DNA from: Nitrosarchaeum sp.
Lineage (GTDB): Archaea > Thermoproteota > Nitrososphaeria > Nitrososphaerales > Nitrosopumilaceae
Assembly (NCBI GenBank): GCA_036984365.1
Contig: BQXB01000003.1
Coordinates: forward strand, 1 to 40,000
Direction of reading: 5' to 3'
DNA: 40,000 bases
Part shown: one piece after another, positions 3,363 through 26,944 of the stretch
How the letters are laid out: each line of letters begins with the position of its first letter
How positions within the stretch are numbered: position 1 is the stretch's first letter
Made by a program: the position numbers and the translations under genes
The notes under the pieces: model-generated
What the model was told of the DNA's origin: nothing
What the model saw: only the letters and a program-made list of their open reading frames with translations
The model's database searches: none

Positions 3363-5555
3363 ATGGCAAAATTCAAGTCAACGACTGAAGTTATGAAGAT
3401 AATCAAAAACAAAGAACAAATTCGCAACTTTAGTGTAATTGCTCACGTTGATCACGGCAAAACTACTATGAGTGATAGTTTATTGGCAGCATCTGGAATT
3501 ATTGCCCCATCTGCAGCTGGAAAAGCATTGGCAATGGATTTTGATAAAGAAGAACAAGAAAGAGGAATTACAATTTATCAAGCAAACGTAACGTTGCACT
3601 TTACAAAAAACAATAAAGAATATGTCATTAACATGATTGATACCCCTGGTCACGTAGATTTCAGTGGAAGGGTAATTCGCAGTCTTAGAGCAATTGACGG
3701 TGCAACTGTTGTATGTGATGCAGTTGAAGGGATTATGACTCAGACCGAAACTGTGACAAGAATGGCACTAGAAGAAAGAGTAAGGCCTGTTTTGTTTATC
3801 AATAAAGTTGATAGATTGATCAAAGAACTCCGTTTAACTCCCGAAAAAATGCAGGAAACACTTGCAGGTGTAGTGTCTAGCTTTAATCAACTAGTTGACA
3901 CTTATGCTGAACCTGAATACAAAGACAAATGGAAAGTATCGATTCAAGACGGTAGTGTCACATTTGGCTCTGCCAAAGACAAGTGGGCATTTAACATAGA
4001 TACTATGAAAGAAAAAGGAATTACATTCAAAGACGTTATTGATGCTTATAAAAATGAAAAAGTAGAAGACTTGGTAGCAAGAGTTCCCTTGGCTGACGCG
4101 GTACTTGGAATGGTAGTAAAACACGTTCCTCCTCCAAACGTTGCCCAAAAGTATAGAATTCCTCAAATTTGGAAGGGAGACCTTGATTCTGATATAGGAA
4201 AGGCACTCTTGGCATGCAGTGACGATGGACCAACAATTATGATGGTAGTCAATATGGTTTTAGATCCAGCGGCGGGGCCTGTTGCAATTGGTAGATTATT
4301 TTCTGGAACAATAAAGGACGGACAAACAGTTAACATCATTGATGCTAAAAGAGAAGGAAGAGTTCAGTCTGTAAACTTTTTCATGGGTAACCAAAGAGAA
4401 CAAGTTGGCGAATTAGGTGCAGGAAACATTCCTGCATTATTGGGATTAACTGAAGCAAGAGCGGGAAATACAATTGCATCTGTCAAAGGAATTCCAATGT
4501 TTGAAGGAGTCAAATATGTTTCAGAACCTGTCGTTCAAGTTGCAATAGAGCCAAAACATCCTAAAGATTTACCAAAACTTGTAGAGGTTCTCAAGCAATT
4601 GACAATTGAAGATCCTAACCTTGTAGTAAAAATCGACGAAGAATCTGGCGAAACACTCGTAGCTGGAATGGGTGTGTTGCACCTTGATGTAGCTACTCAT
4701 AGAATTCAAGATGCTAAAGTAGAAATTATTACATCTGAACCGCTTATCAATTACAGAGAAACTGTCAAAGGTACATGTGAGCCAGTCATGTCAAAATCTC
4801 CAAACAGACACAACAAGATTTTCATGAAAGTCGAACCATTAGAGCCAGCAATTGCGCACATGCTTAGAACCGGTGAAATCAGCGACATGAAAGACAAAAA
4901 GGTTGTAGCTGATCTTCTCAAAGGCGCTGGATGGGATACTGATACAATTAAGAGAATTATGAAACTAGACCCACGTGGAAACGTAATGATTAACGGAACA
5001 AAGGGTGTTCAGTTTATCCAGGAATCAACTGACTCTATTAACTCTGGATTTGAGGAAGTCATGAAAGAGGGGCCGCTCTGTAAAGAGCAGATGAGGGACT
5101 GTAAATTCATCTTTACTCACTTTGTACCTCATGAGGATACAGCGCACAGAGGCTTGTCTCAACTAGGACCTGCATCAAGGCGTGCCTGCATGGGCGCATT
5201 ACTTACTGCCGGAACTACGATTTTAGAGCCAATGCTTGCAATTGAGGTTAGAGTTCCAACTGATTTGGTAGGAAACGTAGCTACCGTACTTTCTGGTAAA
5301 CGTGGTAAGGTACTTGACATGCAGCAAAAAGGCGCTGCAAGTATTATTGTTGGCGAAATTCCAGCTTCTGAGACGTTTACCCTATCTGAAGCAATGAGAG
5401 GGCAAACAGCTGGACGTGCAACATGGAATACGTCATTTAAGGCATGGACTGAACTCCCAAAGTCTATTGCTGTTACCGCAATTGCGGAAATTAGAAAAAG
5501 AAAAGGTTTGGCACCAGTACCGCCTGGAATCGAAGAATATATCGACAGAGAGTAA
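3363..5555 (+). CDS. fusA: archaeal translation elongation factor 2 (aEF-2), translational GTPase
   Basis: G1 AHVDHGKTT, G3 DTPGHVDF and G4 NKVDR motifs, 730 aa, and an EF-2-type C-terminal half (HRGLSQLGPASRRA, RGQTAG). The last four codons plus the stop lie inside the repeated insertion target. Confidence 0.97.
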   Translation: MAKFKSTTEVMKIIKNKEQIRNFSVIAHVDHGKTTMSDSLLAASGIIAPSAAGKALAMDFDKEEQERGITIYQANVTLHFTKNNKEYVINMIDTPGHVDFSGRVIRSLRAIDGATVVCDAVEGIMTQTETVTRMALEERVRPVLFINKVDRLIKELRLTPEKMQETLAGVVSSFNQLVDTYAEPEYKDKWKVSIQDGSVTFGSAKDKWAFNIDTMKEKGITFKDVIDAYKNEKVEDLVARVPLADAVLGMVVKHVPPPNVAQKYRIPQIWKGDLDSDIGKALLACSDDGPTIMMVVNMVLDPAAGPVAIGRLFSGTIKDGQTVNIIDAKREGRVQSVNFFMGNQREQVGELGAGNIPALLGLTEARAGNTIASVKGIPMFEGVKYVSEPVVQVAIEPKHPKDLPKLVEVLKQLTIEDPNLVVKIDEESGETLVAGMGVLHLDVATHRIQDAKVEIITSEPLINYRETVKGTCEPVMSKSPNRHNKIFMKVEPLEPAIAHMLRTGEISDMKDKKVVADLLKGAGWDTDTIKRIMKLDPRGNVMINGTKGVQFIQESTDSINSGFEEVMKEGPLCKEQMRDCKFIFTHFVPHEDTAHRGLSQLGPASRRACMGALLTAGTTILEPMLAIEVRVPTDLVGNVATVLSGKRGKVLDMQQKGAASIIVGEIPASETFTLSEAMRGQTAGRATWNTSFKAWTELPKSIAVTAIAEIRKRKGLAPVPPGIEEYIDRE

Positions 5556-5558
5556 AAA
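5541..5558. repeat. Target copy a (native aEF-2 3' end): ATCGACAGAGAGTAAAAA
   Basis: The exact 18-mer recurs at 11037..11054 and 21940..21957, and with one mismatch at 26927..26944. It encodes I-D-R-E-stop. The true duplicated target may be only ATCGACAGAGAGT (13 nt) if the A5 belongs to the element termini. Confidence 0.9.
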
Positions 5559-5597
5559 TAGAATCCCCCCTTTGTAGGCACGATTTTGTGCTATGTT
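5559..5597. repeat. Casposon 1 left TIR: TAGAATCCCCCCTTTGTAGGCACGATTTTGTGCTATGTT
   Basis: Exact reverse complement of 10993..11031, checked base by base. Confidence 0.92.
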
Positions 5598-5672
5598 TTT
5601 GATTGACTAGATAATTACTCACGTTATGATTTGTTGGAAAATACTTAAGATCATTACTTTGGTCATTATCAT

Positions 5673-5939
5673 ATGGCAAACTTAGGAGTAATTTTGGCAG
5701 GATTGATTTTGTTTGGCATTGCATTCGTTGGATACACTTATCCAATATCCGATAATGGGTATACCATTCCACAATATGATCAACTTTGTGATTCTGGAGT
5801 AGGACAACTAGGACAATTGTTTAACAGGAACACACAACAAGATTGTGGATTAGCAAATACGTTGTTACTTGGAATTTATGGTATTGGATTGATTGGATTG
5901 ATACTTTTCATCGTTGGTCTAGTTGTTCCCAAAAGATGA
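5673..5939 (+). CDS. small membrane protein (88 aa, two hydrophobic segments), overlapping cas1
   Basis: Hydrophobic stretches LGVILAGLILFGIAFVGY and LLLGIYGIGLIGLILFIVGLVV. Its TGA stop overlaps the cas1 ATG (ATGA at 5936..5939). Confidence 0.55.
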   Translation: MANLGVILAGLILFGIAFVGYTYPISDNGYTIPQYDQLCDSGVGQLGQLFNRNTQQDCGLANTLLLGIYGIGLIGLILFIVGLVVPKR

Positions 5940-6961
5940 CATTAAAAGGAAAACAAAACCATTACAACGTAAAATTTCTCAAAGGCTACGGATTTTCAAT
6001 CAAGGTAAAAGATTCCAAGATTGTTCTCACCAATACAGCAGATCCATTCTCAAAACCAGAAAGAGAAGAATGGTACATCGACAACATGCCATATGAAAAA
6101 ATAGTTCTTTGTGGCAAAGGATACATTTCTACTGAGGCACTGAGTTTACTGTCCAATAATAGCAGAAATATTATTTTGCTAGATACATTTGGAAAACCAG
6201 TAACATACCTAAATCCTATAAGAGAATCACAGACAGCCACTTTATACAGAATGATGCAATATGATACATTTCGTGATGAATCAAAAAAAGATTATCTTGT
6301 AAAACAAATCATTTTTGCAAAGAAAAAATCTCAACTACAGTTGCTCCAGAAAATAGGAAGCTCTGTTGACACATTACCTGATGAGGAGGCACATGCAAGT
6401 ATGATCTATTTTTCTGAATATGCAAAATTTATTCCTAAGCGATTTGGATTTAGTTCCAGAAATCAGTCTTTTAGCGGTGCCTCAAAAAGTAATGCCAAAG
6501 ACATCATAAATGCCCTGTTAAACTATGGCTATGCAGTACTAGCAGGTGAAATCTCAAAATTTGTCAACGGTGTAGGATTGGATGCATACTATGGATTTAT
6601 GCACAAGAATCACGGCAATTCCCAATCACTAGTGTATGATTTGATAGAGCCATTTAGGTGGATGGTAGATTATGCAGTGTTTAGTCTTGCCAATAGTGTA
6701 AGCACAAAGCAGAAAATCTACCTCAAAGACTATGCGCATAACAGAGAAGGAGATGTAATTTTGGATTACTCTCTTACCAGACGATTCTTGGAAAGATTGG
6801 AGCGAGTATTTCAAAAAGAGAGACCTTACCGATTAAAGCATGGTAGAAAACGATCTGATGGTCTTTCTATGTGTCAGGAGATTACTATTGTGAAAATAAC
6901 CGTGCAAGATCTTGCAGACTATTGCTGTTACTCCAAGAGTTTTCTTGAAGATAACCGTTAG
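5936..6961 (+). CDS. cas1: Cas1-family casposase (casposon integrase)
   Basis: NALLNYGYAVLAGE...GLDAYYGFMHK...LVYDLIEPFRWMVD is the Cas1 catalytic-core pattern. The start is set at ATG 5936 (MTLKGKQNHYNVKFLKGYG), identical in its first 19 aa to the casposon 2 Cas1. The track's upstream extension from 5843 overlaps the membrane ORF. Confidence 0.92.
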   Translation: MTLKGKQNHYNVKFLKGYGFSIKVKDSKIVLTNTADPFSKPEREEWYIDNMPYEKIVLCGKGYISTEALSLLSNNSRNIILLDTFGKPVTYLNPIRESQTATLYRMMQYDTFRDESKKDYLVKQIIFAKKKSQLQLLQKIGSSVDTLPDEEAHASMIYFSEYAKFIPKRFGFSSRNQSFSGASKSNAKDIINALLNYGYAVLAGEISKFVNGVGLDAYYGFMHKNHGNSQSLVYDLIEPFRWMVDYAVFSLANSVSTKQKIYLKDYAHNREGDVILDYSLTRRFLERLERVFQKERPYRLKHGRKRSDGLSMCQEITIVKITVQDLADYCCYSKSFLEDNR

Positions 6962-7169
6962 TCTTTCTCTTTCTTACTCTCCATAGTGCCCTGTTTGCAG
7001 TTGTTTCTCCATAGTTTTGTCGTAAATTTTTCATTAGAATGGTTCTGACTCTGCCAAATCGCTCAATGTCTTTGATAATTTGCTCTTCACATGCTAAATT
7101 ACCGTCAATAGTTCCTGTTTCTTCTTTTAGATTCTCTTCTTCTCTTTTACTGTCCCAGAATTTTATCAT
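6885..7169 (-). CDS. hypothetical protein (94 aa), specific to casposon 1
   Basis: ORF only. Its 3' end overlaps the cas1 3' end by about 77 nt. No motif recognised. Confidence 0.3.
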   Translation of the reverse strand: MIKFWDSKREEENLKEETGTIDGNLACEEQIIKDIERFGRVRTILMKNLRQNYGETTANRALWRVRKRKTNGYLQENSWSNSNSLQDLARLFSQ

Positions 7170-7202
7170 TGGAATATAGTGCGTGAATGTTGTATTTGAT
7201 CT

Positions 7203-7604
7203 TTAACTTTTAGGTCTGCCACGTTTTCTTATGATTTTAGGTCTGCCTAGTTTTCCTTTTTTCTCAAATTCTTTAATTTCAGTTTGCATTATGCCAAAAA
7301 AATTCTCAAATTCTTTGAATTCTTCTTTGGAATATTTTCTTTCAAGTTTTAAAAATAAACGTTCAATCTTTTTTTGATATTCAAGACTGTTAAACATTTT
7401 TTTTAATTCTGTGAAAAATTCATGTAGTATTGGATATGATTTTGGAGTAAGTCTGTACTTGCTTCTTTCTACTGGAACTAGTATGCTGATTGCTTCTTTC
7501 ACTAGTTGACTTTTTGTTGTTTTTTTCTTTTTCAGATATTCATCAATTATCTTTCCTTGCTCTTGTGAAAATGTAGCACTAACATGATATCTTAATTTAC
7601 GCAT
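7203..7604 (-). CDS. ribbon-helix-helix (CopG/Arc-like) DNA-binding protein
   Basis: Start taken at the internal ATG (MRKLRYHVSATFSQEQGKIIDEYLKKKKTTKSQLVKEAISIL), which gives a beta-strand, helix, turn, helix RHH pattern. The track's N-terminal extension to 7751 is hydrophobic junk that overlaps the divergent gene. Confidence 0.5.
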   Translation of the reverse strand: MRKLRYHVSATFSQEQGKIIDEYLKKKKTTKSQLVKEAISILVPVERSKYRLTPKSYPILHEFFTELKKMFNSLEYQKKIERLFLKLERKYSKEEFKEFENFFGIMQTEIKEFEKKGKLGRPKIIRKRGRPKS

Positions 7605-7653
7605 GAAATGTGTATACAGATTTTGATATTTATTTTTGTAAGTATGTCTATAT

Positions 7654-7857
7654 GTGAAAAACAAAATACCAATCAAGACCCTTGAGTTAGGCACAAGAAA
7701 AATCAGTAACATGAATTTTTCAAAGATTGTTACTCTGCCTAAGCCATTCACCCAAAACTATCTGGATGAGAACATGGAAGTTTCAATGTCCTTGTCTCAT
7801 GACGGGAAATTGACACTAACCCCAGTCAAAAAGTTAGAGGAGGTGAAAAAGAAGTGA
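7654..7857 (+). CDS. AbrB/SpoVT-like small DNA-binding protein, first gene of the polB operon
   Basis: IVTLPKPFTQNYL...EVSMSLSHDGKLTLTPV resembles the swapped-hairpin pattern. The positional counterpart in casposon 2 is 17112..17393. GTG start is uncertain. Confidence 0.4.
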   Translation: MKNKIPIKTLELGTRKISNMNFSKIVTLPKPFTQNYLDENMEVSMSLSHDGKLTLTPVKKLEEVKKK

Positions 7858-8210
7858 TGAAAGAGAAAAGATGGTCACCATTTCTCAGTTGGAGTAGTTA
7901 CAAATCTCAAAATTCCAAAAAGCCCGACGTGTTAGACTTGCAGGTTTCAGAACTAGAGTTGTTTTCTACTGCCTACTCTGTAAATGCAAAGGTCAACCAT
8001 AAAGATTCCGATGGAAGATGGTACGAAAGAATTCTTCCCGTTGGATATCACGAATCAATCAACAAAGATTTGCTAAGGCAATGGGAAGAAGCATTTCACA
8101 ACGGATGGATTAGATTGAACAGCCACATCAGAATCAAGACGTGGCTTGAAACATCAAAGAAGCACAAAGACAGATTGATTAGAAGATACATGCTAATCGT
8201 ATTGGATTAG
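7854..8210 (+). CDS. conserved casposon protein (118 aa)
   Basis: Homolog of 16783..17115 by eye: PFLSWSSYKS versus PFLKWGDYKS, and IRIKTWLETSKK versus LQIKTWLRQSSK. Same operon position. 4-nt overlap with the upstream gene. Confidence 0.6.
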   Translation: MMKEKRWSPFLSWSSYKSQNSKKPDVLDLQVSELELFSTAYSVNAKVNHKDSDGRWYERILPVGYHESINKDLLRQWEEAFHNGWIRLNSHIRIKTWLETSKKHKDRLIRRYMLIVLD

Positions 8211-8243
8211 CAAAAATCTTTTTTTTCTTTTTTATGATGAAAC

Positions 8244-8564
8244 ATGTCCACTGAAGACAAAAGAAGCAAACTGCTAGAGCAACTTGATGCACTAAAGATA
8301 TTCCCAAACAACAAACTAGTAAGACAACTTCGCAATCAACTAAAAACAAAACTGGAAAAACTAGAAACAACATCTGCACCATTTCCAAAAAATCCAAACA
8401 TTTCTAGATCTGGCAAATTAAAGAGATATCATAATTATTTGAGACAAATCAGAAACAACTTTCCAGAATACTCTTACAAGCAAATAAGACAGCAGTTTGC
8501 AAGAAGAAAAAAACAGCAAGACGCTTCAATTCCTGATGCGGTATGGCAGAATCCATCCCCGTAA
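8244..8564 (+). CDS. conserved casposon protein (106 aa) ending ...AVWQNPSP; overlaps the polB start
   Basis: Homolog of 16421..16756, which ends ...VIWQNPSA. N-terminal coiled-coil-like region and basic middle part. 22-nt overlap with polB in both casposons. Confidence 0.6.
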   Translation: MSTEDKRSKLLEQLDALKIFPNNKLVRQLRNQLKTKLEKLETTSAPFPKNPNISRSGKLKRYHNYLRQIRNNFPEYSYKQIRQQFARRKKQQDASIPDAVWQNPSP

Positions 8565-10318
8565 CCAATTACAATACTCTGTCAAAGTTATACACAAAGA
8601 AAAAACAAAACAGAGATCCTGCACAATCAGAACTAAGAGAAATTCATGCGCTGGATACAGAGACATGGAAGGGAGATATCTTTCTAATTGCTGATTCTAG
8701 TGGTCGATATATTGATAAAATTACGCCTGAAAACGTGATGGAATGGCTGTTTTTTAAAAAATACGAGGGTTCTTGGTGCTTTTTTTACAATTTATCATAT
8801 GATGCTGAAGTTATTTTGAAACTGCTTGGAAAAGAACTTGACAGATACAAAAGAACTGGCAAGCTTGAGTTTAAGTTTGGAAAATACAGAATTGTCTACT
8901 ATCCAGAAAAATGCCTCAAGATCACAGCAGGTCACCATTCTGTTATCTTTTATGACATTGCTCAATTTTACCATTCTGGTTTGGTTGATGCATATCAAAA
9001 CAATATTGGAAAACTACCAAAAGAATATCTGGAATTTAAAAAAATTAATGATCAATTCTCACCAACATACTATAGAAGAAATACAAATGCTGTAAGGAAT
9101 TATTGTATTTCAGATTGTAAATACACTAAACAACTGGCACAACACTGGATCAAACTATTTCATGAGGCGTTTTCATTTTATCCTGCAAAGTGGTTGTCCT
9201 CTGGATACTTGGCAGAAAAAGTTTTGATAAACAATAACATAGACATTCCAAAGTTTGATTCCATTCCATATGAGATTCAAGAGATGGCATATCGCAGTTA
9301 TTATGGTGGGAGATTTGAGATTCTAAAACGTGGATTTGTTGGTGAGGCATATCTTTATGACATCAATTCAGCATATCCATATGCAATAACTCAGATTCCA
9401 GATTTATCTGATGGGATATGGATTAAAAGAAAAACAATTCACAAAAACGCAAAAGTTGGATTCTTTAGGATCAGAGCAAAGATTCCAGACTGCAAGTATA
9501 TCCCACCATTTCCATTTAGAACAAAGCATGATATTGTTTTTCCCTCTGGAGAGTTTGAGACATATGTCACACTGCAAGAACTGCTAGTCTGTGAAAAGTC
9601 CTTTTACAAAATTCTTGAAGGATACCAGTTTATCCCAAACTCTGAAATTTATCCATATGCAGATTTTATTTCAAAACTATATCAGAAAAGACTGGAACTA
9701 AAACAGCAAAACAATCCGTTACAGTTGCCAATCAAAATAATTCTGAATTCTATTTATGGCAAGACTGGACAAAGTGTTAATCATAAAATAGGAAACATGT
9801 TCAATCCTGTAATTTTTGCATTTATCACTGGATTTGTGCGTGCCCAACTCTATAGTTTTGTTAAAAAATATGGTTTAGAAAAAGAAGTTGTGTTTTTTGC
9901 AACGGATTCCATATGTACCAGAAAGAAATTAGATATCAATTCTACTGTCTTAGGAGAGTTTTCCTTTGATGGAATGGATGATGATGTCTTTGTGTTGCAG
10001 AATGGTTTCTATCGATTTAATGGAAAATGGAAACAACGTGGATTAGGCAAGTTGGGAACTAGAGAAATAGAACATCTAGACACATTTGAAAAGAATGGGA
10101 GATTGTACTATAGTTTTGTTGTAAACAGAAACAACAGACTACGATCTTCTATTTTACAAAATAAAATTAGCGATATTGGAAAGATAAAACCAGAGACTAG
10201 GGAGTTTAATCTCAATGCAGACAGGAAGAGGTTTTGGTTGGGGAGGATTGAGAGTATGGATGATAAGATAATGAATGAGTCAATACCGATATGTTTTAAT
10301 CATTTTAAAATTAAATGA
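8543..10318 (+). CDS. polB: protein-primed family B DNA polymerase (pPolB)
   Basis: ExoI HALDTET, ExoII YNLSYDAEV, motif A DINSAYPYA, motif B KIILNSIYGKTGQ, motif C FFATDSI. Confidence 0.9.
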   Translation: MAESIPVTNYNTLSKLYTKKKQNRDPAQSELREIHALDTETWKGDIFLIADSSGRYIDKITPENVMEWLFFKKYEGSWCFFYNLSYDAEVILKLLGKELDRYKRTGKLEFKFGKYRIVYYPEKCLKITAGHHSVIFYDIAQFYHSGLVDAYQNNIGKLPKEYLEFKKINDQFSPTYYRRNTNAVRNYCISDCKYTKQLAQHWIKLFHEAFSFYPAKWLSSGYLAEKVLINNNIDIPKFDSIPYEIQEMAYRSYYGGRFEILKRGFVGEAYLYDINSAYPYAITQIPDLSDGIWIKRKTIHKNAKVGFFRIRAKIPDCKYIPPFPFRTKHDIVFPSGEFETYVTLQELLVCEKSFYKILEGYQFIPNSEIYPYADFISKLYQKRLELKQQNNPLQLPIKIILNSIYGKTGQSVNHKIGNMFNPVIFAFITGFVRAQLYSFVKKYGLEKEVVFFATDSICTRKKLDINSTVLGEFSFDGMDDDVFVLQNGFYRFNGKWKQRGLGKLGTREIEHLDTFEKNGRLYYSFVVNRNNRLRSSILQNKISDIGKIKPETREFNLNADRKRFWLGRIESMDDKIMNESIPICFNHFKIK

Positions 10319-10328
10319 TGTTTTAAAA

Positions 10329-10592: not shown

Positions 10593-10609
10593 AGTTATAA
10601 TATTGAATT

Positions 10610-10999: not shown

Positions 11000-11031
11000 C
11001 ACAAAATCGTGCCTACAAAGGGGGGATTCTA
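10993..11031. repeat. Casposon 1 right TIR
   Basis: AACATAGCACAAAATCGTGCCTACAAAGGGGGGATTCTA is the exact reverse complement of 5559..5597. Confidence 0.92.
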
Positions 11032-11036
11032 TTTTT

Positions 11037-19945: not shown

Positions 19946-20019
19946 ATTTTCTAATACATGTAATGAACTACAGTCTTTTTAATTTAGCAAGATAGATTTT
20001 GAAAAACAGGCACAAGAAA

Positions 20020-21090
20020 TTAGATGATGAAATTACTTGACTTTCCAAGACAAAATCCAATTAAATTCTGAACTGCAATCTTTGCAATAGTAATTTCTTG
20101 AACATTTTTCAACCCGTCTTTTGTCTTTGCACCATGTCTAAAGAAATATTTTCTATCTTGCTGAAATGTTCTTTCCAATAATTCTAAAAATTTCCTGATC
20201 AAATTATACTCCATAATTATAATGCCATCTCTAGTATGAGTAAATTCATCCAGTCTGATTCTCTGCTTATGGTCTTTGATGTTAGATATCTTGAATACTG
20301 TATAATCAACTAGCCATCTAAACGGCTCCATCATGTCATAGACTAACGGCTGAAATCCAGTGTGCTGTTTATGATAAAACCCATAGTATGCATCAAGCCC
20401 AAATCCGTTGATAAACTTGGAAATCTCTCCACCTAGTACTGCATAGCCATAATTCAGCAAGGCATTGATGATATCAGTTGCCTTGTTTTTTGCCAGTCCT
20501 ATATATGATGGGTTTCTAGATGAAAACTCGTATCTTTCTGGAATTAGTTTTGCAAATGCTCTAAAGTAGATATGAGCTGTCTTTGACTCATTACTGATTG
20601 GGGAATTATTGTTTAGATTAGTTAGATGTGCCTCTAGTTTTTCTATAGCATCTATCACTTCGCTTCGCTCAGTAGTTTTGAGGAATCTGATTTGAGATTC
20701 TAGTTTTGCCTTTACAATTTTTCTCTGAAGATATTGGCATTTCTCTTTATCTCGAAATGTATCGTACTGAGCAATTCTGTTTTTAGTTGCAGTTAGTGAC
20801 TCCATTACTGGATTCAGATAAGTAACAGGTTTTCCATGATGGTCTAGTAAAATGACATTTCGATTATTCTCAGATAACAATGCCAAAGCATCAGTAGAGA
20901 TGTATCCTTTACCTTGCAGAACTATTTTTTCATATGGCATGCTTTTGATGTACCATTCTTCTATAGAACAATCTGAAAAAGGATCATGACAGTCTTTGAG
21001 AATTATTTTTGAATCTTTGACAGAGATAGAGTGACCGTAGCCTTTTAGGAATTTTACGTTGTAATGATTTTGTTTTCCTTTTAGAGTCAT
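20020..21090 (-). CDS. cas1: Cas1-family casposase
   Basis: NALLNYGYAVLGGE...GLDAYYGFYHK...LVYDMMEPFRWLVD. About three-quarters identical to the casposon 1 Cas1 over the first 94 aa by eye (21 differences), with synonymous differences at the DNA level. Confidence 0.92.
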   Translation of the reverse strand: MTLKGKQNHYNVKFLKGYGHSISVKDSKIILKDCHDPFSDCSIEEWYIKSMPYEKIVLQGKGYISTDALALLSENNRNVILLDHHGKPVTYLNPVMESLTATKNRIAQYDTFRDKEKCQYLQRKIVKAKLESQIRFLKTTERSEVIDAIEKLEAHLTNLNNNSPISNESKTAHIYFRAFAKLIPERYEFSSRNPSYIGLAKNKATDIINALLNYGYAVLGGEISKFINGFGLDAYYGFYHKQHTGFQPLVYDMMEPFRWLVDYTVFKISNIKDHKQRIRLDEFTHTRDGIIIMEYNLIRKFLELLERTFQQDRKYFFRHGAKTKDGLKNVQEITIAKIAVQNLIGFCLGKSSNFII

Positions 21091-21136
21091 ATGAGATTGC
21101 AGATATTCAAAATTAGAGTTTTGTATCTATTGTTTA

Positions 21137-21829
21137 TCATAATGCCCATCCACGTTCTTTAAGATTAATCGCACTTGCAGGATCAACACATACTAAATTT
21201 GAATAATCATGTTTGATCAATAATCTCAATGAATCATTTTTACATCTACCATTTTCATTAATGGCTTTACTATATTGATCTACAACAGATAGACCACCCA
21301 TTCCAAATCCTGAAGGACCTTCAAACATGTGAGTTATTTTATAATATTGTCTTGTATATTGTCCTGAATTATTGAATTGAATTGGAAATTTAATGTAAAA
21401 TGGATTTTCAACATCCACTACAAAATCGTACGAGTCTCCAATCAAACTTTGTTTGTAAAACGCTTCATTTTGAGCAGGAATGCTTTGAGCAAATTTCTGA
21501 TGCTCAGCATCAGTTACATTGTCACCCATTGGTGGGTGTATCATTTTATCCCCCATCTGAATGGCATAGCCTACTGTTGCATTAACATCAGTTGCGTTTC
21601 TTAGATCCTTTGCTTGAAAATCCACTTTTTGTATAATCTGATATTCCGTTCCTACTAGCAGTATTGAAATTTGTTTCATGTCATATGTAAAAATTCCATA
21701 TTCGGTTCTATTGTCGATCCCAAAGTCAGAGAAAGAAAAATCAGTTAACGGGATTACTGTTTGTGCATCTGCATAAGCAAGACAAGATATTGCAAAAAAC
21801 ACGATTACGATAAAACCAAAAATTCTCAC
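21137..21829 (-). CDS. secreted protein (230 aa) with a C-terminal C-x-x-P-x-S-x3-L-x-ERGWA motif
   Basis: GTG start and signal-like N-terminus MRIFGFIVIVFFAISCLAYADAQ. The C-terminus LVCVDPASAINLKERGWAL is shared with the host-like ORF 32060..33997. Confidence 0.6.
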   Translation of the reverse strand: MRIFGFIVIVFFAISCLAYADAQTVIPLTDFSFSDFGIDNRTEYGIFTYDMKQISILLVGTEYQIIQKVDFQAKDLRNATDVNATVGYAIQMGDKMIHPPMGDNVTDAEHQKFAQSIPAQNEAFYKQSLIGDSYDFVVDVENPFYIKFPIQFNNSGQYTRQYYKITHMFEGPSGFGMGGLSVVDQYSKAINENGRCKNDSLRLLIKHDYSNLVCVDPASAINLKERGWAL

Positions 21830-21894
21830 AAAATAATTTTAGAATTTCTAATCTTTAAATAATTTCCAACAAACCAACTCACATCATTACGTTA

Positions 21895-21934
21895 GTCAGA
21901 CGCATGTTTTTGTTCCTAAAGAGGGGGGACTGCC
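21895..21934. repeat. Casposon 2 right TIR
   Basis: GTCAGACGCATGTTTTTGTTCCTAAAGAGGGGGGACTGCC matches the reverse complement of 11055..11094 at 38 of 40 positions. Confidence 0.9.
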
Positions 21935-21939
21935 TTTTT

Positions 21940-21957
21940 ATCGACAGAGAGTAAAAA
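21940..21957. repeat. Target copy c: ATCGACAGAGAGTAAAAA, junction of casposon 2 and element 3
   Basis: Identical to copies a and b. Preceded by T5. Confidence 0.9.
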
Positions 21958-22626
21958 TAGAATCCCCCCTTTTGTGAGTAAAAACAGACAGGTACTAGAA
22001 AAGATATCTGACGATTATTTTTTGGAGATTCCTTAAGATCATGACGACAGTTATGATTTCTCAATGACTAAAGCAAAAGCAACTCAACTTGCAAAAACAC
22101 GAATCAAATCAAATGCCATATATCTCAGGGGCATAGAAAAATACGAAAAAGAAAATCCAAACCATTCTGAAAATCAACTCGGTGCAAAAATATCCAAACT
22201 TGTGATAAAAATGATTTTTGAGTTATAATAGAATGAATTATTGTGAAATAAAAATAAAAAATTGTAATAAAAATCTGTGAAAATCACAGTATTACATTGC
22301 TGGCCAAATACCGAATTTAGTTTTCTTGTATATTATTTTCATTTTTTCACCTCACTGTTCTTCAAAGAATATCCAAGAAAGACCGATTACATCCATCGCA
22401 GTATTGATTGGAAGGAGGCTATTGCCCTTACTTCCAACCATGACAGATGACACTTTTGGACTTTGGATTGACTTGCACTGGACTGCTTGCATGCTATACT
22501 ATGTGGATAGAATTATTTGTTCATGACTTCAAGTCTGTGGCATGCCTTATTCTCTGTAGACAAAAAGGGCAAAACCGATTTGTTCAGGAAAAGATGTTGT
22601 CGTAGTGCCTAAGATTTATAAAAAAT

Positions 22627-23304
22627 TCAAAAACTATTTCTGCTCTTCATAATTTTCTCAAAAGCGATTTTGACTGAGATGAACATTTTTTCTGCATATT
22701 TTGATTCATTGGGATTTTTGTCAGAATGCCACTTTAAGACTAGACGCCTGTACGCCTCTTTGATCTCTTTATCAGATGAATTTTGTGAAACTTCAAGCAA
22801 GTTATAGTGTATTGCAAGATCTGACTCGTCCTCAAAAGTTTGCTGAGTTTTTTGATAGGTTTTTTTGTATTTGTTTTATCTTCTATGAAAAAATTCTCTT
22901 TTAAATAATGACTCAATGTATTGCTTATGTTTTTGGGATTCAGCTGAGGAAATTTCTGACCAATGTGCCTGCTCAAACTCTTGAATTATTTCATCAAATT
23001 CTTTATCTGATATCCTAGATTGATTTGTTTGGAAACTCTCCTCTTGAGGAACATAGTCTTGTCGGTTTCTAAAATTCCTAAAATAACTCATAAATGATTT
23101 CTGCTTTACAATTCTACTTTTTGCCATACAATCTCTGCAAGTAAACTCTGGGGTTTTCAGGATTTCTCCACAAGTCAATTCTGCTAAAAATTCCTTTGCA
23201 CTTGGAGCATTTATTGGAGCTAGTATCTGAGTCGTTTTTTTATTCTCTTTTAGATCCATGTCGTGAATTTCATGTTTGATTCCAATATCTTGTTCATTGC
23301 GCAT
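22627..23304 (-). pseudogene. Cys-rich N-terminal region plus C-terminal J-domain (HSD variant of HPD), interrupted by an in-frame TAA
   Basis: The 142-aa ORF stops at TAA 22876..22878. The same frame continues NKYKKTYQKTQQTFEDESDLAIHYNLLEVSQNSSDKEIKEAYRRLVLKWHSDKNPNESKYAEKMFISVKIAFEKIMKSRNSF to a stop at 22627..22629. This is a textbook J-domain helix I-III pattern with no start codon of its own. Confidence 0.55.
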
Positions 23305-23552
23305 CGTGGATAGTTACATGGGTTCTTTATGGGTTTGTTTTCAATACCCTCAATTTCGTGAATAATTCCTTGTCTGTTTAGAGAACATTTTCCATCATCG
23401 CATAATCTAATTCCAAATAGACGCGCTAAAAATTGTAAACTTAACACTTTTGAAACTTATTTTCCTAAATCCTTGGTTTTTAGAATATTTGATTCTGATC
23501 CCCTAGACTGGATAATGATAAAGATGAAATTGGCTATGAATCTTAAATTATT

Positions 23553-24212
23553 TTAATTTAGGAATATTTTATGAATGCTTTCTTTTGAAATATGTAATTT
23601 GTAGATATCGTCGTTTTTTAAAACAAATATTTTATCATGCATCAAAAATAACTCGATCATATCTGTGATATCTGAATTCATTAAATCACTTGCTTTGTAT
23701 GGGCAAAACATCAAACCTGGCAATCTTGCCTCATCATATGTCTTTTCAAGCTCCATGACATATGCAAATGAATTATTTGCAACGTCTGTAATTACAAAGT
23801 CAACACAACAAAGTGGTTTTTTTGTCGATGCTTTGGCAATGTTTTGAATTACTTGGCCGCAATATCTTGACGCATTAGTTCCATGAGGATTGTATGGTTT
23901 AACAGTTCCATTATGCCAATCAAGTTTGGATAACAATTTTTCTGCATGATGTTTTGGTGGTGCAGCAAATGACTTGAACCATTCTGTATTGTTTGTCATC
24001 TTGTCTAATGACTTAAGAAAGTTATTCATTGACTTTTCATCTGAATAAATTAGCAAATCGTGCACGTGTGGAACATGTATTTTTTTATCTAGCCATTGTT
24101 CCACGGCATCTTTTATTATTGAATTAATTGAAACTCCCATTTGGTCTGCTTTTTTTCCAAGATGCGAGTGAGTATCATCATCAAAACCTCTAACTAGAAT
24201 GTCTTTTGTCAA
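23553..24212 (-). CDS. RHH-domain regulator with a C-terminal sensor-like domain (possibly MEDS-like)
   Basis: TTG start. N-terminal ILVRGFDDDTHSHLGKKADQMGVSINSIIKDAVEQWL is RHH. The C-terminal HDLLIYSDEK...MFCPYKASDL...LMHDKIF is reminiscent of MEDS domains, at low confidence. Confidence 0.5.
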   Translation of the reverse strand: MTKDILVRGFDDDTHSHLGKKADQMGVSINSIIKDAVEQWLDKKIHVPHVHDLLIYSDEKSMNNFLKSLDKMTNNTEWFKSFAAPPKHHAEKLLSKLDWHNGTVKPYNPHGTNASRYCGQVIQNIAKASTKKPLCCVDFVITDVANNSFAYVMELEKTYDEARLPGLMFCPYKASDLMNSDITDMIELFLMHDKIFVLKNDDIYKLHISKESIHKIFLN

Positions 24213-24245
24213 TGATATCGTTTGTTATTATATCTATATAAATTA

Positions 24246-24261
24246 TGATATCATGATATCA
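24246..24261. promoter_or_regulatory. Perfect 16-bp palindrome TGATATCATGATATCA (candidate operator)
   Basis: Self-complementary as read. It lies in the 91-bp divergent intergenic region between the RHH regulator and the OsmC-like gene. Confidence 0.5.
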
Positions 24262-24282
24262 AAAATAATAATATTAATATAA

Positions 24283-24298
24283 CGATATCATGATATCA
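24283..24298. promoter_or_regulatory. Second copy of the palindrome, CGATATCATGATATCA (15 of 16)
   Basis: Lies 37 bp from the first copy and ends 5 nt before the OsmC-like ATG. A half-site TGATATCG sits at 24213..24220, next to the regulator start codon. Confidence 0.5.
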
Positions 24299-24303
24299 TA
24301 TTC

Positions 24304-24870
24304 ATGAATACCCAACAAATACAAAAAAACATTGTCAATGGTGTTGATGTTTCAAAATTGACTCAAACCATTGATGATCTAACACAAAAACCAGACCTGG
24401 CTCAATTCCATTTTTGTGCAAGAAATAGCTGGATCAATGGAGGAAAAAACCGTACAACCGTAAATGGGTTTTACGGAGTAGGAAAGACACATGTTCGAAG
24501 CAAGCCTTTTGTCTTTACAAAAGATGAACCACCTGTACTGCTAGGAACTGATCAGGGTGCAAATCCTGTGGAATATGCACTGACTGCACTTGCAGGATGT
24601 GTTACGACCACCTTGGTATACTATGCATCTGCAATGAATGTCAAGATCAATAAGGTTGAGACTGTCCTTGAGGGCGATATTGACTTGAGAGGTCTGCTGA
24701 ACATCGATGAGAATGTAAATGCAGGATACAAAAGCATTCAAGTCAAATTCAATATAGATTCTGATGCTTCACGAGAAACATTGCAGAAACTAATTGAAAT
24801 TGCCAGAAAACATTCCCCTGTGGCAAACACAATCACCAATGCCACCCCCATTAATCTTAGTTTGGCCTAA
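24304..24870 (+). CDS. OsmC/Ohr-family protein (peroxiredoxin-like)
   Basis: GANPVEYALTALAGCVTTTLVYYA...KFNIDSDASRETLQKLIEIARKHSPVANT is the OsmC-fold pattern with the conserved Cys. Confidence 0.7.
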   Translation: MNTQQIQKNIVNGVDVSKLTQTIDDLTQKPDLAQFHFCARNSWINGGKNRTTVNGFYGVGKTHVRSKPFVFTKDEPPVLLGTDQGANPVEYALTALAGCVTTTLVYYASAMNVKINKVETVLEGDIDLRGLLNIDENVNAGYKSIQVKFNIDSDASRETLQKLIEIARKHSPVANTITNATPINLSLA

Positions 24871-25513
24871 GCCATACTATTTTTTATTTTTATAAACTTT
24901 CTAAATCCTTAAGTTATCACAAACATCATTTCATCAGATATGGATAAATGGGATTCTGATGCAGATGATTGGAGAGATTGGAAAATATGATAATAAATAT
25001 TCTAGAACGTTTCGTTGTAAAAAATATAGAAATCCATACAAGAAAAAACTGACAAAAAAGACAGTACTTGAAACTGCAGACAAAATTCAAGAAACAGCAT
25101 CAGAAATAACAAAAAGATAGAAGAGGATCAAATTCAGCGTGAAAAAGAAAAACAGCTGATAAAAAATACCTGAAGACATTGGAGCACAAATTTATCTGCT
25201 GTTCAACAAGGTAACCCCCAAGGAACTACTCCACTTGTCTGTAATCCAACCATTGCAAAATCATCTGTTAATCATAACAATGACATGACAAACAGCAATT
25301 ATTTCTATTATTGATCTTATGGTTATCACATAGAACCAATAATTGGAATTGTTGCAAGTAGTTTAGCTTTCATTGCATTTAAAAAAAGCAAATGACTCTT
25401 AAATGCCAAAAAATCATTACAATATAAAATTCCTAAAAGTAAATGGTCCCTCCATTTCTGTTGGAAATTTCAAAACTAAATTTAGATATATTACATAAAT
25501 ATCATGCAGCCAA

Positions 25514-25681
25514 TCCATTGCATTTGAGTGATTTTGTATTAATGTTACAGTCAAGATGAAATTGTAGATCAGAAATACGATTGCACTTGGAGCATGAATA
25601 CTGTACGGGGTTCCTGCATTTATCACACACGGCATATTCTACAAGTATGTTGCCGCAACTTCTGCAGCTTTCATCAGGCAT
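25514..25681 (-). CDS. small zinc-ribbon protein (55 aa), below the ORF-track size cutoff
   Basis: My own translation is MPDESCRSCGNILVEYAVCDKCRNPVQYSCSKCNRISDLQFHLDCNINTKSLKCNGLAA, with three CxxC pairs. The ATG lies 1 nt after the stop of the upstream ORF 25683..26096. Confidence 0.4.
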
Positions 25682-25682
25682 G

Positions 25683-26096
25683 TTATACCACTATCACATT
25701 GGAGATTGGAGTCTGAAATTCTGATACCAGAGACGACATGTTGGTTGAGAACTGTTTTACATCTACGTTGGCATTGGAAATAACCAACAAGACTTCTTCA
25801 TCGAGATTACAAACAAACTCTACGTGCGATTCTCGTATAGTTACTGTCTGGTGAAAAGAGCTTAGACTTTGATCGAATTCTTTTATCATGGATGTTTGCA
25901 ACGAACGCTGCATTGCAATCATTTCTAATTGATTCTCCGACAGGCAGCTCAAAGCCGTATCTTTGCCAAATTTACTTTCTACAATTCTTCCATTCTTGTT
26001 TATTATTGCAACAAGATCAACATCTTTGCTCATCAGATGTATAGCATCACATAATTCAGATTTTTTGATAAATCTTAACACATTATTTGTTTTCAT
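25683..26096 (-). CDS. hypothetical protein; same family as 2721..3086
   Basis: Collinear similarity by eye to the 121-aa ORF in the left flank. Confidence 0.45.
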   Translation of the reverse strand: MKTNNVLRFIKKSELCDAIHLMSKDVDLVAIINKNGRIVESKFGKDTALSCLSENQLEMIAMQRSLQTSMIKEFDQSLSSFHQTVTIRESHVEFVCNLDEEVLLVISNANVDVKQFSTNMSSLVSEFQTPISNVIVV

Positions 26097-26185
26097 GCTT
26101 TGTCTTGTCTATTGAGATATTTAGGCAACCTGTTAACTTTGTTAACAAAAATAATGCTTAATATTCAGCCTGACATCACTCCGGT

Positions 26186-26698
26186 ATGGGAAATCCTTTA
26201 GGTTTTAGATTACGTGATGAAGACCAAGAGGAATTTTTAAAAATTGTCGATCAAGAAGGAGTATCCGTGTCATCACTTACAGCAAAGATCATTCATGACT
26301 GGTTGAGATTTAGAAGATCAAAACAGCACAGAGGAGATATCACACTTGCAAGTAAAATTCTAAAAAGCAGGCACAATGCAATACAGAAAAAAATGATTCC
26401 CAAGTTAGTAAAAGATGATTCAAAATATATTCTCTCTGAAATGCAGTTTCAGGTAGACAATCTGGATTTTAAAGAATTAACCAAAAGAATCACAGAGTGG
26501 AACAAAGAAAACGGATTGGTGTTTGTAACGAGAAATAGGACGGGCAGCACTGTATTCATGCAAAAACATGATCTTGGCATAGTTTGGTCTGAGATTCAAT
26601 GCAAAATGTATTGCATGATGTACGAATGTATAGGAGAAACAGTACTATCTAAAAAATTTGAGAGAAACTTGTTTAGTTTTGAGATTGTATCTCATTAA
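26186..26698 (+). CDS. RHH-domain regulator (170 aa)
   Basis: LGFRLRDEDQEEFLKIVDQEGVSVSSLTAKIIHDWL is an RHH pattern similar to the N-terminus of 23553..24212. Confidence 0.5.
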   Translation: MGNPLGFRLRDEDQEEFLKIVDQEGVSVSSLTAKIIHDWLRFRRSKQHRGDITLASKILKSRHNAIQKKMIPKLVKDDSKYILSEMQFQVDNLDFKELTKRITEWNKENGLVFVTRNRTGSTVFMQKHDLGIVWSEIQCKMYCMMYECIGETVLSKKFERNLFSFEIVSH

Positions 26699-26926
26699 TC
26701 TTCTTTTTAACATGAAAAGAATCTTTTTCTTATCGACACTGATAAAAAATGAATTTTTACTAAATATGATGCATTACAGATTTTTGGCTTAGAAGAGAGC
26801 CAAATTAGAATTTGAGCGTACTAATTTTAGTTATGACATAGTATGGACAAACTTACGCACAAAAAGTGGGAATGTACTATCGATTTATTACAAAAATGAT
26901 TTGAAATAGAGGAATATTTCCTTTTT

Positions 26927-26944
26927 ATCGACAGAGAATAAAAA
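26927..26944. repeat. Target copy d (distal, probably the ancestral aEF-2 3' end): ATCGACAGAGAATAAAAA
   Basis: 17 of 18 identical to copies a-c. The G-to-A difference at 26938 is synonymous (GAG to GAA, both Glu), so the copy still reads I-D-R-E-stop. Confidence 0.8.

What the first reader, a model, noticed from the sequence alone, without database searches (positions are those of the whole stretch)
5541..26944. Three insertions stacked in the aEF-2 3' end, delimited by four copies of the gene's last codons
ATCGACAGAGAGTAAAAA occurs at 5541, 11037 and 21940 (identical) and at 26927 (one synonymous mismatch). Each interval between copies is bounded by element termini. The termini are perfect 39-bp TIRs for element 1, 38/40 TIRs for element 2, and a casposon-1-like left end for element 3. 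As I recall from the original casposon description (Krupovic, Koonin and colleagues, 2014), thaumarchaeal family-1 casposons target the aEF-2 3' end, so single insertions here are known biology. A three-deep array with two different intact casposons in opposite orientation is a more unusual configuration. It suggests repeated re-use of the regenerated target. The mismatch only in the distal copy suggests that element 3 arrived first. Every C6/G6 run I could find in the window (5565, 11020, 11061, 21923, 21964) sits in an element terminus.
Basis: partly seen in the sequence, partly recalled or inferred. Interest (0 to 1): 0.75.

Follow-up and report, generated by a model that had tools for sequence, protein, structure and literature searches.

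The report
Stacked casposons behind the aEF-2 gene
Two intact self-replicating Cas1 transposons (casposons) and one decayed remnant sit head-to-tail behind an essential translation gene of an ammonia-oxidising archaeon. Each is separated from the next by a copy of the gene's last 13 bases. This is a real but already described kind of arrangement.

Summary
ATCGACAGAGAGTAAAAA occurs only at 5541, 11037 and 21940 (exact) and at 26927 (one mismatch, GAG to GAA). All C6/G6 runs lie in element ends.

- Element 1 (5554-11036) is a family-1 casposon with Cas1, protein-primed PolB and perfect TIRs.
- Element 2 (11050-21939) is also a family-1 casposon, with TIRs matching at 38/40. It is inverted and clearly different from element 1 (Cas1 59%, PolB 47% identity).
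- Element 3 (21953-26926) has a genuine casposon left end only. It has no Cas1 or PolB, a 5' Cas1 stub and no recognisable right TIR. It is a decayed mosaic.

By published biochemistry the true duplication is probably 13 bp (ATCGACAGAGAGT). The A5/T5 runs belong to the element ends. All four copies keep the bases that the N. koreensis casposase needs, so each insertion regenerates usable targets.

The novelty is overstated. Tandem family-1 casposons in ef-2 were published in 2019 (Ca. Nitrosopumilus adriaticus NF5). My metagenome scan found 66 right-end/TSD/left-end junctions, 64 of them between different tip types. One contig is at least three deep with the same E1-like/E2-like layout.

Verdict: new member of a known kind, modest interest.

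The parts
3363..5555 (+). aEF-2 gene (730 aa), intact. Its last 13 coding bases plus stop codon form the integration target.
   Evidence: Pfam GTP_EFTU, EFG_III, EFG_IV and EFG_C domains. Residues 1-730 align to relatives at up to 99% identity.
5541..5553 (+). Target copy 1 (ATCGACAGAGAGT), inside aEF-2. Native leader is TAT. The stop codon TAA is completed by the A5 that follows.
5554..11036 (+). Element 1: an intact family-1 casposon of 5483 bp. TIRs at 5554-5597 and 10993-11036 are perfect.
   Evidence: Inverted repeat I7. TIR counts. Terminus profile E = 3e-10 at both ends.
5936..6961 (+). Element 1 casposase (Cas1 homologue, 341 aa from the ATG at 5936).
   Evidence: Pfam Cas_Cas1 E = 1e-44. 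Best solved structure is the M. mazei casposase 6OPM, E = 3e-29. R113, K117, K184, Y197 and Y234 are invariant in the alignment.
7854..8564 (+). Element 1: two small conserved casposon genes immediately upstream of PolB (7854-8210 and 8244-8564).
   Evidence: 33-35% identity to the element 2 ORFs at 16783-17115 and 16421-16756.
8543..10318 (+). Element 1 protein-primed-type family B DNA polymerase (591 aa).
   Evidence: Pfam DNA_pol_B_2 E = 8e-29. 80% identity to the PolB in L110.
11037..11049 (+). Target copy 2, between the T5 of the element 1 right end and the A5 of the element 2 left end.
11050..21939 (-). Element 2: an intact family-1 casposon of 10890 bp, with its genes in the opposite orientation to element 1. 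TIRs match at 38/40.
   Evidence: Inverted repeat I4. TIR counts. Terminus profile E about 1e-7.
11235..14599 (.). Element 2 cargo block. It holds a 418-aa ORF of unknown function (11235-12491, +), a TIR-domain protein (12561-13598, -), a PolB C-terminal fragment (13632-13727, -) and a PDC-S31 candidate defence protein (13763-14599, -).
   Evidence: Pfam TIR_2 E = 1e-9. PADLOC weak ThsB-like hit and PDC-S31 E = 5e-20. phrog_34615. PolB fragment.
14625..16442 (-). Element 2 protein-primed-type PolB (605 aa).
   Evidence: Pfam DNA_pol_B_2 E = 5e-20. 47% identity to the element 1 PolB.
20020..21090 (-). Element 2 casposase (356 aa).
   Evidence: Pfam Cas_Cas1 E = 8e-50. 59% identity to the element 1 Cas1.
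21940..21952 (+). Target copy 3, between the element 2 right end and the element 3 left end.
21953..26926 (+). Element 3: a decayed casposon-derived mosaic of 4974 bp. It has a genuine left terminus (21953-21993) and subterminal region, no Cas1 or PolB gene, and no recognisable right TIR.
   Evidence: Terminus profile hits only the left end, E = 9e-7. Left-end alignment. Pfam. TIR test gives 9/20.
24304..24870 (+). OsmC-like gene inside element 3. In relative L014 its 3' end is fused to a truncated Cas1.
   Evidence: Pfam OsmC E = 4e-22. L014 match at 84-92% identity.
25391..25488 (+). Cas1 5' stub (about 22-30 codons) inside element 3.
   Evidence: 66 nt at 77% identity to the start of the element 2 cas1 (I6). 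tblastn E = 0.008. blastn to L013 and L110 at 78-79%.
26710..26775 (+). Possible eroded older junction (AAAAGAATCTTTTTCTT / ATCGACACTGATA / AAAAATGAATTTTTAC). Not statistically significant.
   Evidence: Repeat family D1. Junction profile E = 0.39. Sequence read directly.
26927..26939 (+). Target copy 4 (ATCGACAGAGAAT), the distal boundary. It is preceded by T5 and followed by AAAAAAGCG.
   Evidence: The GAA allele is also found in 12 of the 17 closest relatives.
26940..30280 (.). Variable stretch (ORF at 27015-28073 and a Na+/H+ exchanger at 28737-29945) that is not shared with close relatives. Conserved synteny resumes near 30280. It may be older island material.
   Evidence: tblastx and blastn against 80 aEF-2 loci. 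Pfam.

Best explanation
This is a tandem array of family-1 casposons at their known chromosomal target, the 3' end of aEF-2, in a Nitrosarchaeum-like archaeon.

Mechanism. Each casposon's Cas1-type integrase (casposase) attacks both borders of a 13-bp segment, ATCGACAGAGAGT. This segment is the last four codons of aEF-2 plus the T of the stop codon. Gap repair then duplicates the segment.

The element ends are AAAAA...TTTTT. The left A5 restores the TAA stop codon and the AAA flank of the gene-proximal copy. The right T5 provides a TTT 'leader' for the distal copy. Every insertion therefore leaves aEF-2 intact and creates a second competent target. Nothing prevents another casposon from landing next to the first.

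Likely history. At least three insertions followed one another. An old one is now the decayed mosaic element 3, whose distal target copy still carries what is probably the ancestral GAA allele. The two later ones are the unrelated, apparently intact elements 2 and 1.

What is shown: the anatomy, the gene content, the distinctness of elements 1 and 2, variable occupancy in relatives, and the frequency of such junctions in nature.

What is inferred: the 13-bp cut sites, the competence of each copy as a target, and the order of insertion.
For: - Four target copies sit exactly at the element boundaries and nowhere else in the window.
- Elements 1 and 2 each have Cas1, protein-primed-type PolB, two homologous small genes upstream of PolB, and TIRs.
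- Elements 1 and 2 are only 59% (Cas1) and 47% (PolB) identical, so they are not a duplication.
- Both casposases are full length and keep the residues that matter in the N. koreensis enzyme.
- aEF-2 is the published target of family-1 casposons (PMC4046053; PMC4779613).
- Tandem family-1 casposons in ef-2 are published (PMC6563490).
- For the N. koreensis casposase, the experimental TSD is the homologous 13-mer ATTGATAAAGAGT. It needs T at position -1, A1, A11, T13 and a downstream AAA (PMC8464041). All four window copies satisfy these rules.
- Occupancy varies among relatives. Of 70 informative species-representative loci, 21 have a casposon terminus directly after the stop codon, and the others do not (for example L005, L004, L047, L050). 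The closest relative with a long contig (L003, 98% aEF-2 identity) carries a different, inverted element.
- 66 right-end/TSD/left-end junctions were found in metagenomes, 64 of them with different tips on the two sides.
- L110 is at least three deep.
- Internal target copies always carry the resident gene's own allele (window AGA; L110 AAA; L108 GAC). This argues for insertion in situ.
Against: - No integration or excision was observed here. The cut sites are extrapolated from a different casposase whose 'ruler' motif ATAA is ACAG in this window.
- Element 3 has no right TIR even though the adjacent T5, target copy and A5 are almost perfectly preserved. Simple neutral decay does not explain this contrast well.
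- No relative offers a clean empty site with the same downstream flank. The region between aEF-2 and the conserved gene at 30422 is rearranged in every relative examined.
- The E1-like then E2-like order recurs in L110. This leaves some room for inheritance or transfer of a pre-formed array.
Confidence: 0.87

Rival explanations
1. The array is an old, vertically inherited fossil rather than the product of repeated recent target re-use. It could also have arrived as a single composite unit running from the element 1 left end to the element 2 right end.
For: - A metagenome contig from a different genus-level host (L110) has the same layout: an E1-like element (PolB 80%), then an E2-like inverted element (PolB 65%, Cas1 63%), then a third element.
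- ATTCTA-type right ends followed by (A/G)GCAGT-type left ends also occur in L140 and L145.
- Most species representatives carry only decayed remnants at this site.
Against: - The internal target copies match the resident aEF-2 allele in each host: AGA in all window copies and AAA in both L110 junctions. Under vertical inheritance this would need parallel changes in several non-coding copies.
- Element 1 has perfect 44-bp TIRs, and the middle element of L110 has identical ends over about 55 nt.
- The closest relative (L003) has a different first element. L101, which has the identical 13-mer, has an E1-like element distal to another element.
Confidence: 0.08
2. The array is an assembly artefact. 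Different strains each carry one casposon at the same site, and the assembler chained them through the shared target and TIR tips.
For: - Many MAG contigs, and the one Logan contig with the identical aEF-2, stop within a few bases of the aEF-2 stop codon or in the C-run (L001, L002, L007, L015, L035, L049). This shows that the site breaks assemblies.
- The left junctions of elements 1 and 3 are identical for about 38 nt (5540-5577 versus 21939-21976).
Against: - The element 1/element 2 and element 2/element 3 junctions share only the 23-nt T5+TSD+A5 with other junctions. That is too short to mis-join at normal k-mer sizes.
- The same type of heterologous junction was assembled independently in 67 metagenome contigs.
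- Tandem insertion is documented in a complete genome (PMC6563490).
Confidence: 0.03
3. Element 3 is not a decayed casposon. It is a different kind of insert: a non-autonomous element, or arbitrary DNA integrated by a casposase with only one canonical end.
For: - Element 3 has a canonical left end and intact flanking target copies, but no TIR partner.
- The N. koreensis casposase integrates many DNAs that lack the TIR motif (PMC8464041).
Against: - Element 3 contains a Cas1 5' stub, and it contains host-like fragments (a J-domain piece) and an intact host-like OsmC gene, which are typical of decay and rearrangement.
- L014 shows the same OsmC sequence fused to a truncated Cas1, which is evidence of deletion in a formerly complete element.
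- The right tip (GGAAATATTCCTCT) can be read as an eroded GGCAGTCCCCCCTCT.
Confidence: 0.1

Closest known systems
NitNF5-C1 / NitNF5-C2, two family-1 casposons in tandem in the ef-2 gene of Ca. Nitrosopumilus adriaticus NF5 (Krupovic et al. 2019, PMC6563490)
   Same: Same family, same target gene and same architecture: TSD, element, TSD, element, TSD, with two different casposons. The paper explicitly interprets this as re-use of the integration site.
   Different: The window comes from a Nitrosarchaeum-like host. It has two intact elements in opposite orientation plus a third decayed unit, giving four target copies. The cargo is different (a TIR-domain protein and a PDC-S31-like gene).
NitAR1-C1 of Ca. 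Nitrosopumilus koreensis AR1 and its casposase (Krupovic 2014, PMC4046053; Wang et al. 2021, PMC8464041)
   Same: Homologous target (ATTGATAAAGAGT versus ATCGACAGAGAGT), the TTCTA motif at the TIR tip, A5/T-rich flanks, an HTH-less Cas1, and conservation of the residues tested by mutagenesis.
   Different: NitAR1-C1 is a single insertion. The native leader is TTT there and TAT here. The ruler motif ATAA is ACAG here. No biochemistry exists for the window's enzymes.
Tandem family-2 casposons in Methanosarcina spp. and Methanococcoides burtonii (Krupovic 2014, 2016)
   Same: [quoted passage not shown] One copy is often inactivated.
   Different: A different casposon family with a non-protein-primed PolB and an HTH-bearing Cas1. 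The targets are tRNA-Leu genes or intergenic sites. The neighbouring elements are closely related copies rather than distinct elements.
Tn7 at attTn7 downstream of glmS
   Same: The transposon recognises the 3' end of an essential conserved gene and inserts so that the gene stays intact. Islands of stacked, partly inactivated elements can form.
   Different: The transposase (TnsABCD) is unrelated. Tn7 has target immunity, which makes stacking rare.
CRISPR array (repeat and spacer integration by Cas1-Cas2)
   Same: A Cas1-family integrase makes staggered attacks on both borders of a short repeat next to a T-rich leader, so the repeat is duplicated at each insertion.
   Different: Here the inserted DNA is a whole 5-11 kb transposon. 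There is no Cas2, no crRNA and no interference function. Polarity of insertion is not shown.

Membership tests
Family-1 casposon (elements 1 and 2) | Encodes a Cas1-family casposase without the C-terminal HTH domain. | tested here: met
   Pfam finds Cas_Cas1 only. The proteins are 341 and 356 aa, against 431 aa for the HTH-bearing M. mazei casposase 6OPM. The match to 6OPM ends at residue 295 of 6OPM.
Family-1 casposon (elements 1 and 2) | Encodes a protein-primed-type family B DNA polymerase. | tested here: met
   PF03175 DNA_pol_B_2 (organellar and viral type), E = 8e-29 and 5e-20.
Family-1 casposon (elements 1 and 2) | Three or four small uncharacterised genes conserved immediately upstream of pPolB. 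| tested here: met
   Two such genes are detectably homologous between elements 1 and 2: 7854-8210 with 16783-17115, and 8244-8564 with 16421-16756. L110 has ORFs in the same positions.
Family-1 casposon (elements 1 and 2) | Terminal inverted repeats flanked by a target-site duplication at the aEF-2 3' end. | tested here: met
   Element 1 TIRs 39/39, element 2 TIRs 38/40. The 13-mer flanks both elements.
Family-1 casposon (elements 1 and 2) | Cas1 falls in the family-1 clade of the Cas1 tree. | not tested
   No tree was built. Indirect support only: 60-64% identity to the Cas1 of thaumarchaeal casposons on metagenome contigs, and conservation of the residues numbered as in the N. koreensis enzyme.
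Family-1 casposon (elements 1 and 2) | Demonstrated mobility (integration or excision). | not testable with these tools
   Only comparative evidence is available: variable occupancy and heterologous junctions.
Family-1 casposon (element 3) | Cas1, pPolB and paired TIRs. | tested here: not met
   No Cas1 or PolB gene is present, only a 22-30 codon Cas1 stub. The left terminus is genuine. The right terminus is not recognisable. Element 3 is best called a casposon-derived remnant.
Tandem casposon array | Neighbouring elements separated only by a single shared copy of the target. | tested here: met
   Junctions at 11020-11066 and 21923-21969 read right end, T5, 13-mer, A5, left end, with nothing else between.

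The most novel reading that the evidence does not exclude
Casposon arrays at aEF-2 may grow in a polarised, chronological way, like CRISPR arrays. In the window, integrity falls with distance from the gene: element 1 has perfect TIRs, element 2 has 38/40, and element 3 is decayed and carries the older GAA allele at its distal copy.

The element's own T5 end manufactures the TTT leader that the casposase needs. Such arrays would then be a living analogue of the proposed proto-CRISPR stage: a 13-bp repeat, a T-rich leader, and Cas1-inserted DNA.

My data neither establish nor exclude polarity. In other contigs both proximal and distal neighbours can be the decayed one.
Probability: 0.15. Interest if true: 0.65.

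Novelty: new member of a known kind. Interest (0 to 1): 0.3.

Why it matters
This is a clean, fully bounded example of serial casposon integration, with two apparently functional but different family-1 elements side by side. That makes it a convenient natural substrate set for testing three questions:
- how family-1 casposases choose among regenerated targets;
- whether they cross-mobilise each other's ends;
- whether arrays grow directionally.

These questions bear on the casposon-to-CRISPR origin scenario.

The survey done here also suggests that the aEF-2 3' end is a general casposon landing pad and graveyard in Nitrosopumilaceae. About 30% of species representatives carry a terminus there, mostly with remnants only. 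Stacking of unrelated elements appears to be the rule in environmental populations.

The arrangement itself is not a new kind of biology.

Tried and rejected
- **Segmental duplication.** Rejected: elements 1 and 2 share only 59% (Cas1) and 47% (PolB) protein identity.
- **tRNA target.** There are no tRNA genes in the window.
- **Source genome.** Exact-protein look-up found aEF-2 only on one 5.3-kb Logan contig that ends in the element 1 terminus. The element 2 Cas1 is not on record.
- **Further target copies in 80 related aEF-2 loci.** None within 10 kb at up to 3 mismatches, and no right-end junctions there. Those loci hold mostly one-ended remnants.
- **Right end of element 3.** A terminus profile and a junction profile gave no significant match beyond T5 plus 'TCC'.
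- **Candidate extra junctions.** 26727-26751 (E = 0.39), 22547-22571 on the minus strand (E = 0.59) and 38828-38851 (E = 0.02) are not significant. They are reported only as leads.
- **Function of unknown ORFs.** NCBIfam and PHROGs gave no functional names for the unknown ORFs of elements 2 and 3, apart from a WING-49 domain and phrog_34615.
- **Supplements.** The supplementary tables of the 2016 casposon paper are not held. I could not check whether NitAR-C1, -C2 and -C3 are adjacent.
- **Clean empty site.** No relative has an empty site with the same downstream flank. The region between aEF-2 and the gene at 30422 is rearranged in all relatives.

Full report
**Observation**

The 18-mer ATCGACAGAGAGTAAAAA occurs four times in the window and nowhere else, even at 3 mismatches. 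The copies at 5541, 11037 and 21940 are exact. The copy at 26927 has one mismatch, GAG to GAA, which is synonymous in the aEF-2 frame. Shuffles give 0 to 0.11 expected matches.

The first copy is the end of a 730-aa ORF (3363-5555). This ORF is aEF-2 by Pfam and is 99% identical over its full length to Nitrosopumilaceae homologues. All five C6/G6 runs of the window lie 6 nt inside the A5/T5 runs that flank these copies.

**What the units are**

- **Element 1 (5554-11036)** encodes a small membrane protein, a Cas1 homologue (5936-6961), two small conserved genes and a protein-primed-type PolB (8543-10318), all on the plus strand.
- **Element 2 (11050-21939)** encodes the same core on the minus strand: PolB at 14625-16442, small genes at 16421-17115 and Cas1 at 20020-21090. 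It also has about 3.4 kb of cargo next to its left end.
- The two cores are homologous but distant: Cas1 59%, PolB 47% and the small genes 33-35%. They are different casposons, not a duplication.
- Both casposases are full length. Their best solved relative is the M. mazei casposase 6OPM. They keep R113, K117, K184, Y197 and Y234, the residues whose mutation impaired the N. koreensis enzyme (PMC8464041).
- **Element 3 (21953-26926)** differs from the other two. Its left 40 nt match a terminus profile (E = 9e-7). Its subterminal 100 nt align with the left ends of element 1 and of L033. It has no Cas1 or PolB gene, and its two ends do not pair (9/20).
- Element 3 contains an intact OsmC-like gene, two ribbon-helix-helix-like ORFs, a J-domain fragment, and a Cas1 5' stub at about 25391-25488. 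The stub lies 3.4 kb from the left end instead of the usual 0.4 kb.
- In relative L014 the same OsmC 3' end is fused directly to a truncated Cas1. Element 3 is therefore a decayed, rearranged casposon remnant. It may combine more than one element; a possible eroded junction at 26710-26775 is not significant (E = 0.39).

**Mechanism**

Family-1 casposons are known to target the aEF-2 3' end (PMC4046053; PMC4779613).

For the N. koreensis AR1 casposase, the apparent 22-bp duplication was shown in vitro to be a 13-bp TSD, ATTGATAAAGAGT. It needs T at leader position -1 (minimal leader TTT), A1, A11, T13 and AAA just downstream (PMC8464041).

The window's repeat is the homologous 13-mer ATCGACAGAGAGT. 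The A5 after it and the T5 before the internal copies are best read as the element tips, AAAAATAGAAT...ATTCTATTTTT. On this reading:
- the left tip restores the TAA stop codon and the AAA flank;
- the right tip supplies a TTT leader to the distal copy.

All four copies (leaders TAT, TTT, TTT, TTT) satisfy every published requirement. Each insertion therefore regenerates two usable targets, which explains stacking. This step is inferred by analogy. The ruler motif ATAA of N. koreensis is ACAG here.

**Order of insertion**

Any copy could be a target, so position alone does not give the order. Three points favour element 3 as the oldest:
- it is decayed;
- its distal copy carries GAA;
- GAA is the allele in 12 of the 17 closest relatives.

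The distal copy therefore probably preserves the aEF-2 terminus as it was before the gene changed to GAG. Elements 1 and 2 then inserted into GAG copies.

**Comparison with relatives**

The host is Nitrosarchaeum-like. Among 70 informative species-representative loci:
- 21 have a casposon terminus immediately after the aEF-2 stop codon;
- only one of those 21 (L003) retains a full-length core gene within 10 kb (plus L018, not counted among the 70, where aEF-2 is fused to a casposon ORF);
- 11 have only Cas1 or PolB fragments, and 9 have none;
- the remaining loci show no terminus.

The closest relative with a long contig (L003, 98% aEF-2 identity) has a different, inverted first element. Conserved synteny with relatives resumes only near 30280.

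**How unusual is stacking?**

A pattern for right end, T5, 13-mer, A5, left end found 67 metagenome contigs. In 64 of 66 junctions, the tips on the two sides differ.

- L110 (Ga0224506_10000056) has two junctions 8.2 kb apart. It carries an E1-like element (PolB 80%), an inverted E2-like element (PolB 65%, Cas1 63%, ends identical over about 55 nt) and the left end of a third type.
- L095 and L108 show aEF-2, a casposon, a junction and then a next element. Their internal target copies carry the host's own allele.
- L101 has the window's exact 13-mer but places an E1-like element distal to another element.

Published work already shows two different family-1 casposons in tandem in ef-2 of Ca. 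N. adriaticus NF5 and interprets this as site re-use (PMC6563490). Three distinct family-1 casposons are also reported in Nitrosopumilus sp. AR.

**Rivals**

- **Vertical inheritance or transfer of a pre-formed array.** The L110 parallel suggests this. It is disfavoured because the internal copies match each host's allele, the TIRs are perfect, and close relatives carry different occupants.
- **Assembly chimera.** This is unlikely. The junctions share only 23 nt, and equivalent junctions were assembled independently many times.
- **Element 3 as a non-canonical insert.** This remains possible at low probability.

**Verdict**

The arrangement is a further, somewhat deeper instance of a published phenomenon: two intact elements plus at least one remnant, in a new genus. 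Its novelty is limited to the depth of the array, the opposite orientation of the two intact elements, and the cargo.

Noticed in passing
window 11235-14599 (element 2, next to its left end): The cargo block holds an unknown 418-aa ORF, a TIR-domain protein (weakly ThsB-like) and a PDC-S31 candidate defence protein (also phrog_34615). A PolB C-terminal fragment lies between them at 13632-13727. This suggests that element 2 acquired defence-like cargo by recombination with another casposon. The E2-like element in L110 has only one 299-aa ORF in this slot.
   Followed up: partly
L038 12192-13360; L031 at about 8.0 kb (minus strand): L038 has a 1.15-kb mini-casposon with both termini and a Cas1 fragment. 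Its right end is followed by an inverted copy of the target (ACTCTTTATCAAA, matching the reverse complement of the TSD at 10/13). L031 has an inverted T5, target, A5 and terminus about 1.6 kb downstream of aEF-2. Both fit a flip of the 13-mer by recombination between the inverted tips of two stacked elements.
   Followed up: partly
L018 12150-12350: In this Nitrosarchaeum MAG the aEF-2 ORF loses its last 12 codons. It runs on into casposon sequence, giving a 782-aa fusion ORF directly followed by a full Cas1. This is either a deletion spanning the target and the left terminus, or a misassembly.
   Followed up: no
L014 4154-4965: A Cas1 gene truncated at about residue 205 is fused in frame to the last 24 codons of an OsmC gene. 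That stretch is 84-92% identical to window 24796-24915. An OsmC gene is therefore associated with casposon remnants at this site in two lineages.
   Followed up: partly
window 26940-30280: The ORF at 27015-28073 has an internal 31-nt repeat (27133 and 27364). Neither it nor the Na+/H+ exchanger at 28737-29945 has a counterpart downstream of aEF-2 in the closest relatives. Distant (26-30%) Na+/H+ exchanger genes follow casposon remnants in L013, L014, L019 and L069. This stretch may be older island material beyond the last target copy.
   Followed up: partly
L001, L002, L007, L015, L035, L049: Several MAG or Logan contigs end within 2-17 nt of the aEF-2 stop codon, some inside the casposon C-run. 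The site is a systematic assembly breakpoint, so short-read MAGs probably under-report casposon arrays.
   Followed up: no
Cas1 stubs: window 25391-25488; L008, L009, L013, L092, L098, L125, L135, L148: Remnants repeatedly keep only the first 20-40 codons of cas1 next to a terminus. This suggests recurrent internal deletions that spare the ends.
   Followed up: no
window 38828-38851: GTAAAAATACTATGCCCCTTTTCT resembles the end of the target plus a casposon left tip (junction profile E = 0.02). It lies inside a 456-aa minus-strand ORF and is probably chance.
   Followed up: no
window 18127-18168, 16615-16671 and 30300-30345: Short tandem repeats: ATTACATACAC three times inside element 2; a 15-nt T-rich periodicity in the ORF at 16421-16756; and a duplicated ATTGTAGCATTATCTTG just upstream of the conserved gene at 30422.
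   Followed up: no
window 22627-22800 (minus strand): A 57-aa J-domain-like ORF lies inside element 3, with HSD in place of HPD. Its homologues lie 8-11 kb upstream of aEF-2 in several Nitrosopumilus loci (L033, L034, L045, L059, L063). It looks like a captured host gene fragment.
   Followed up: no
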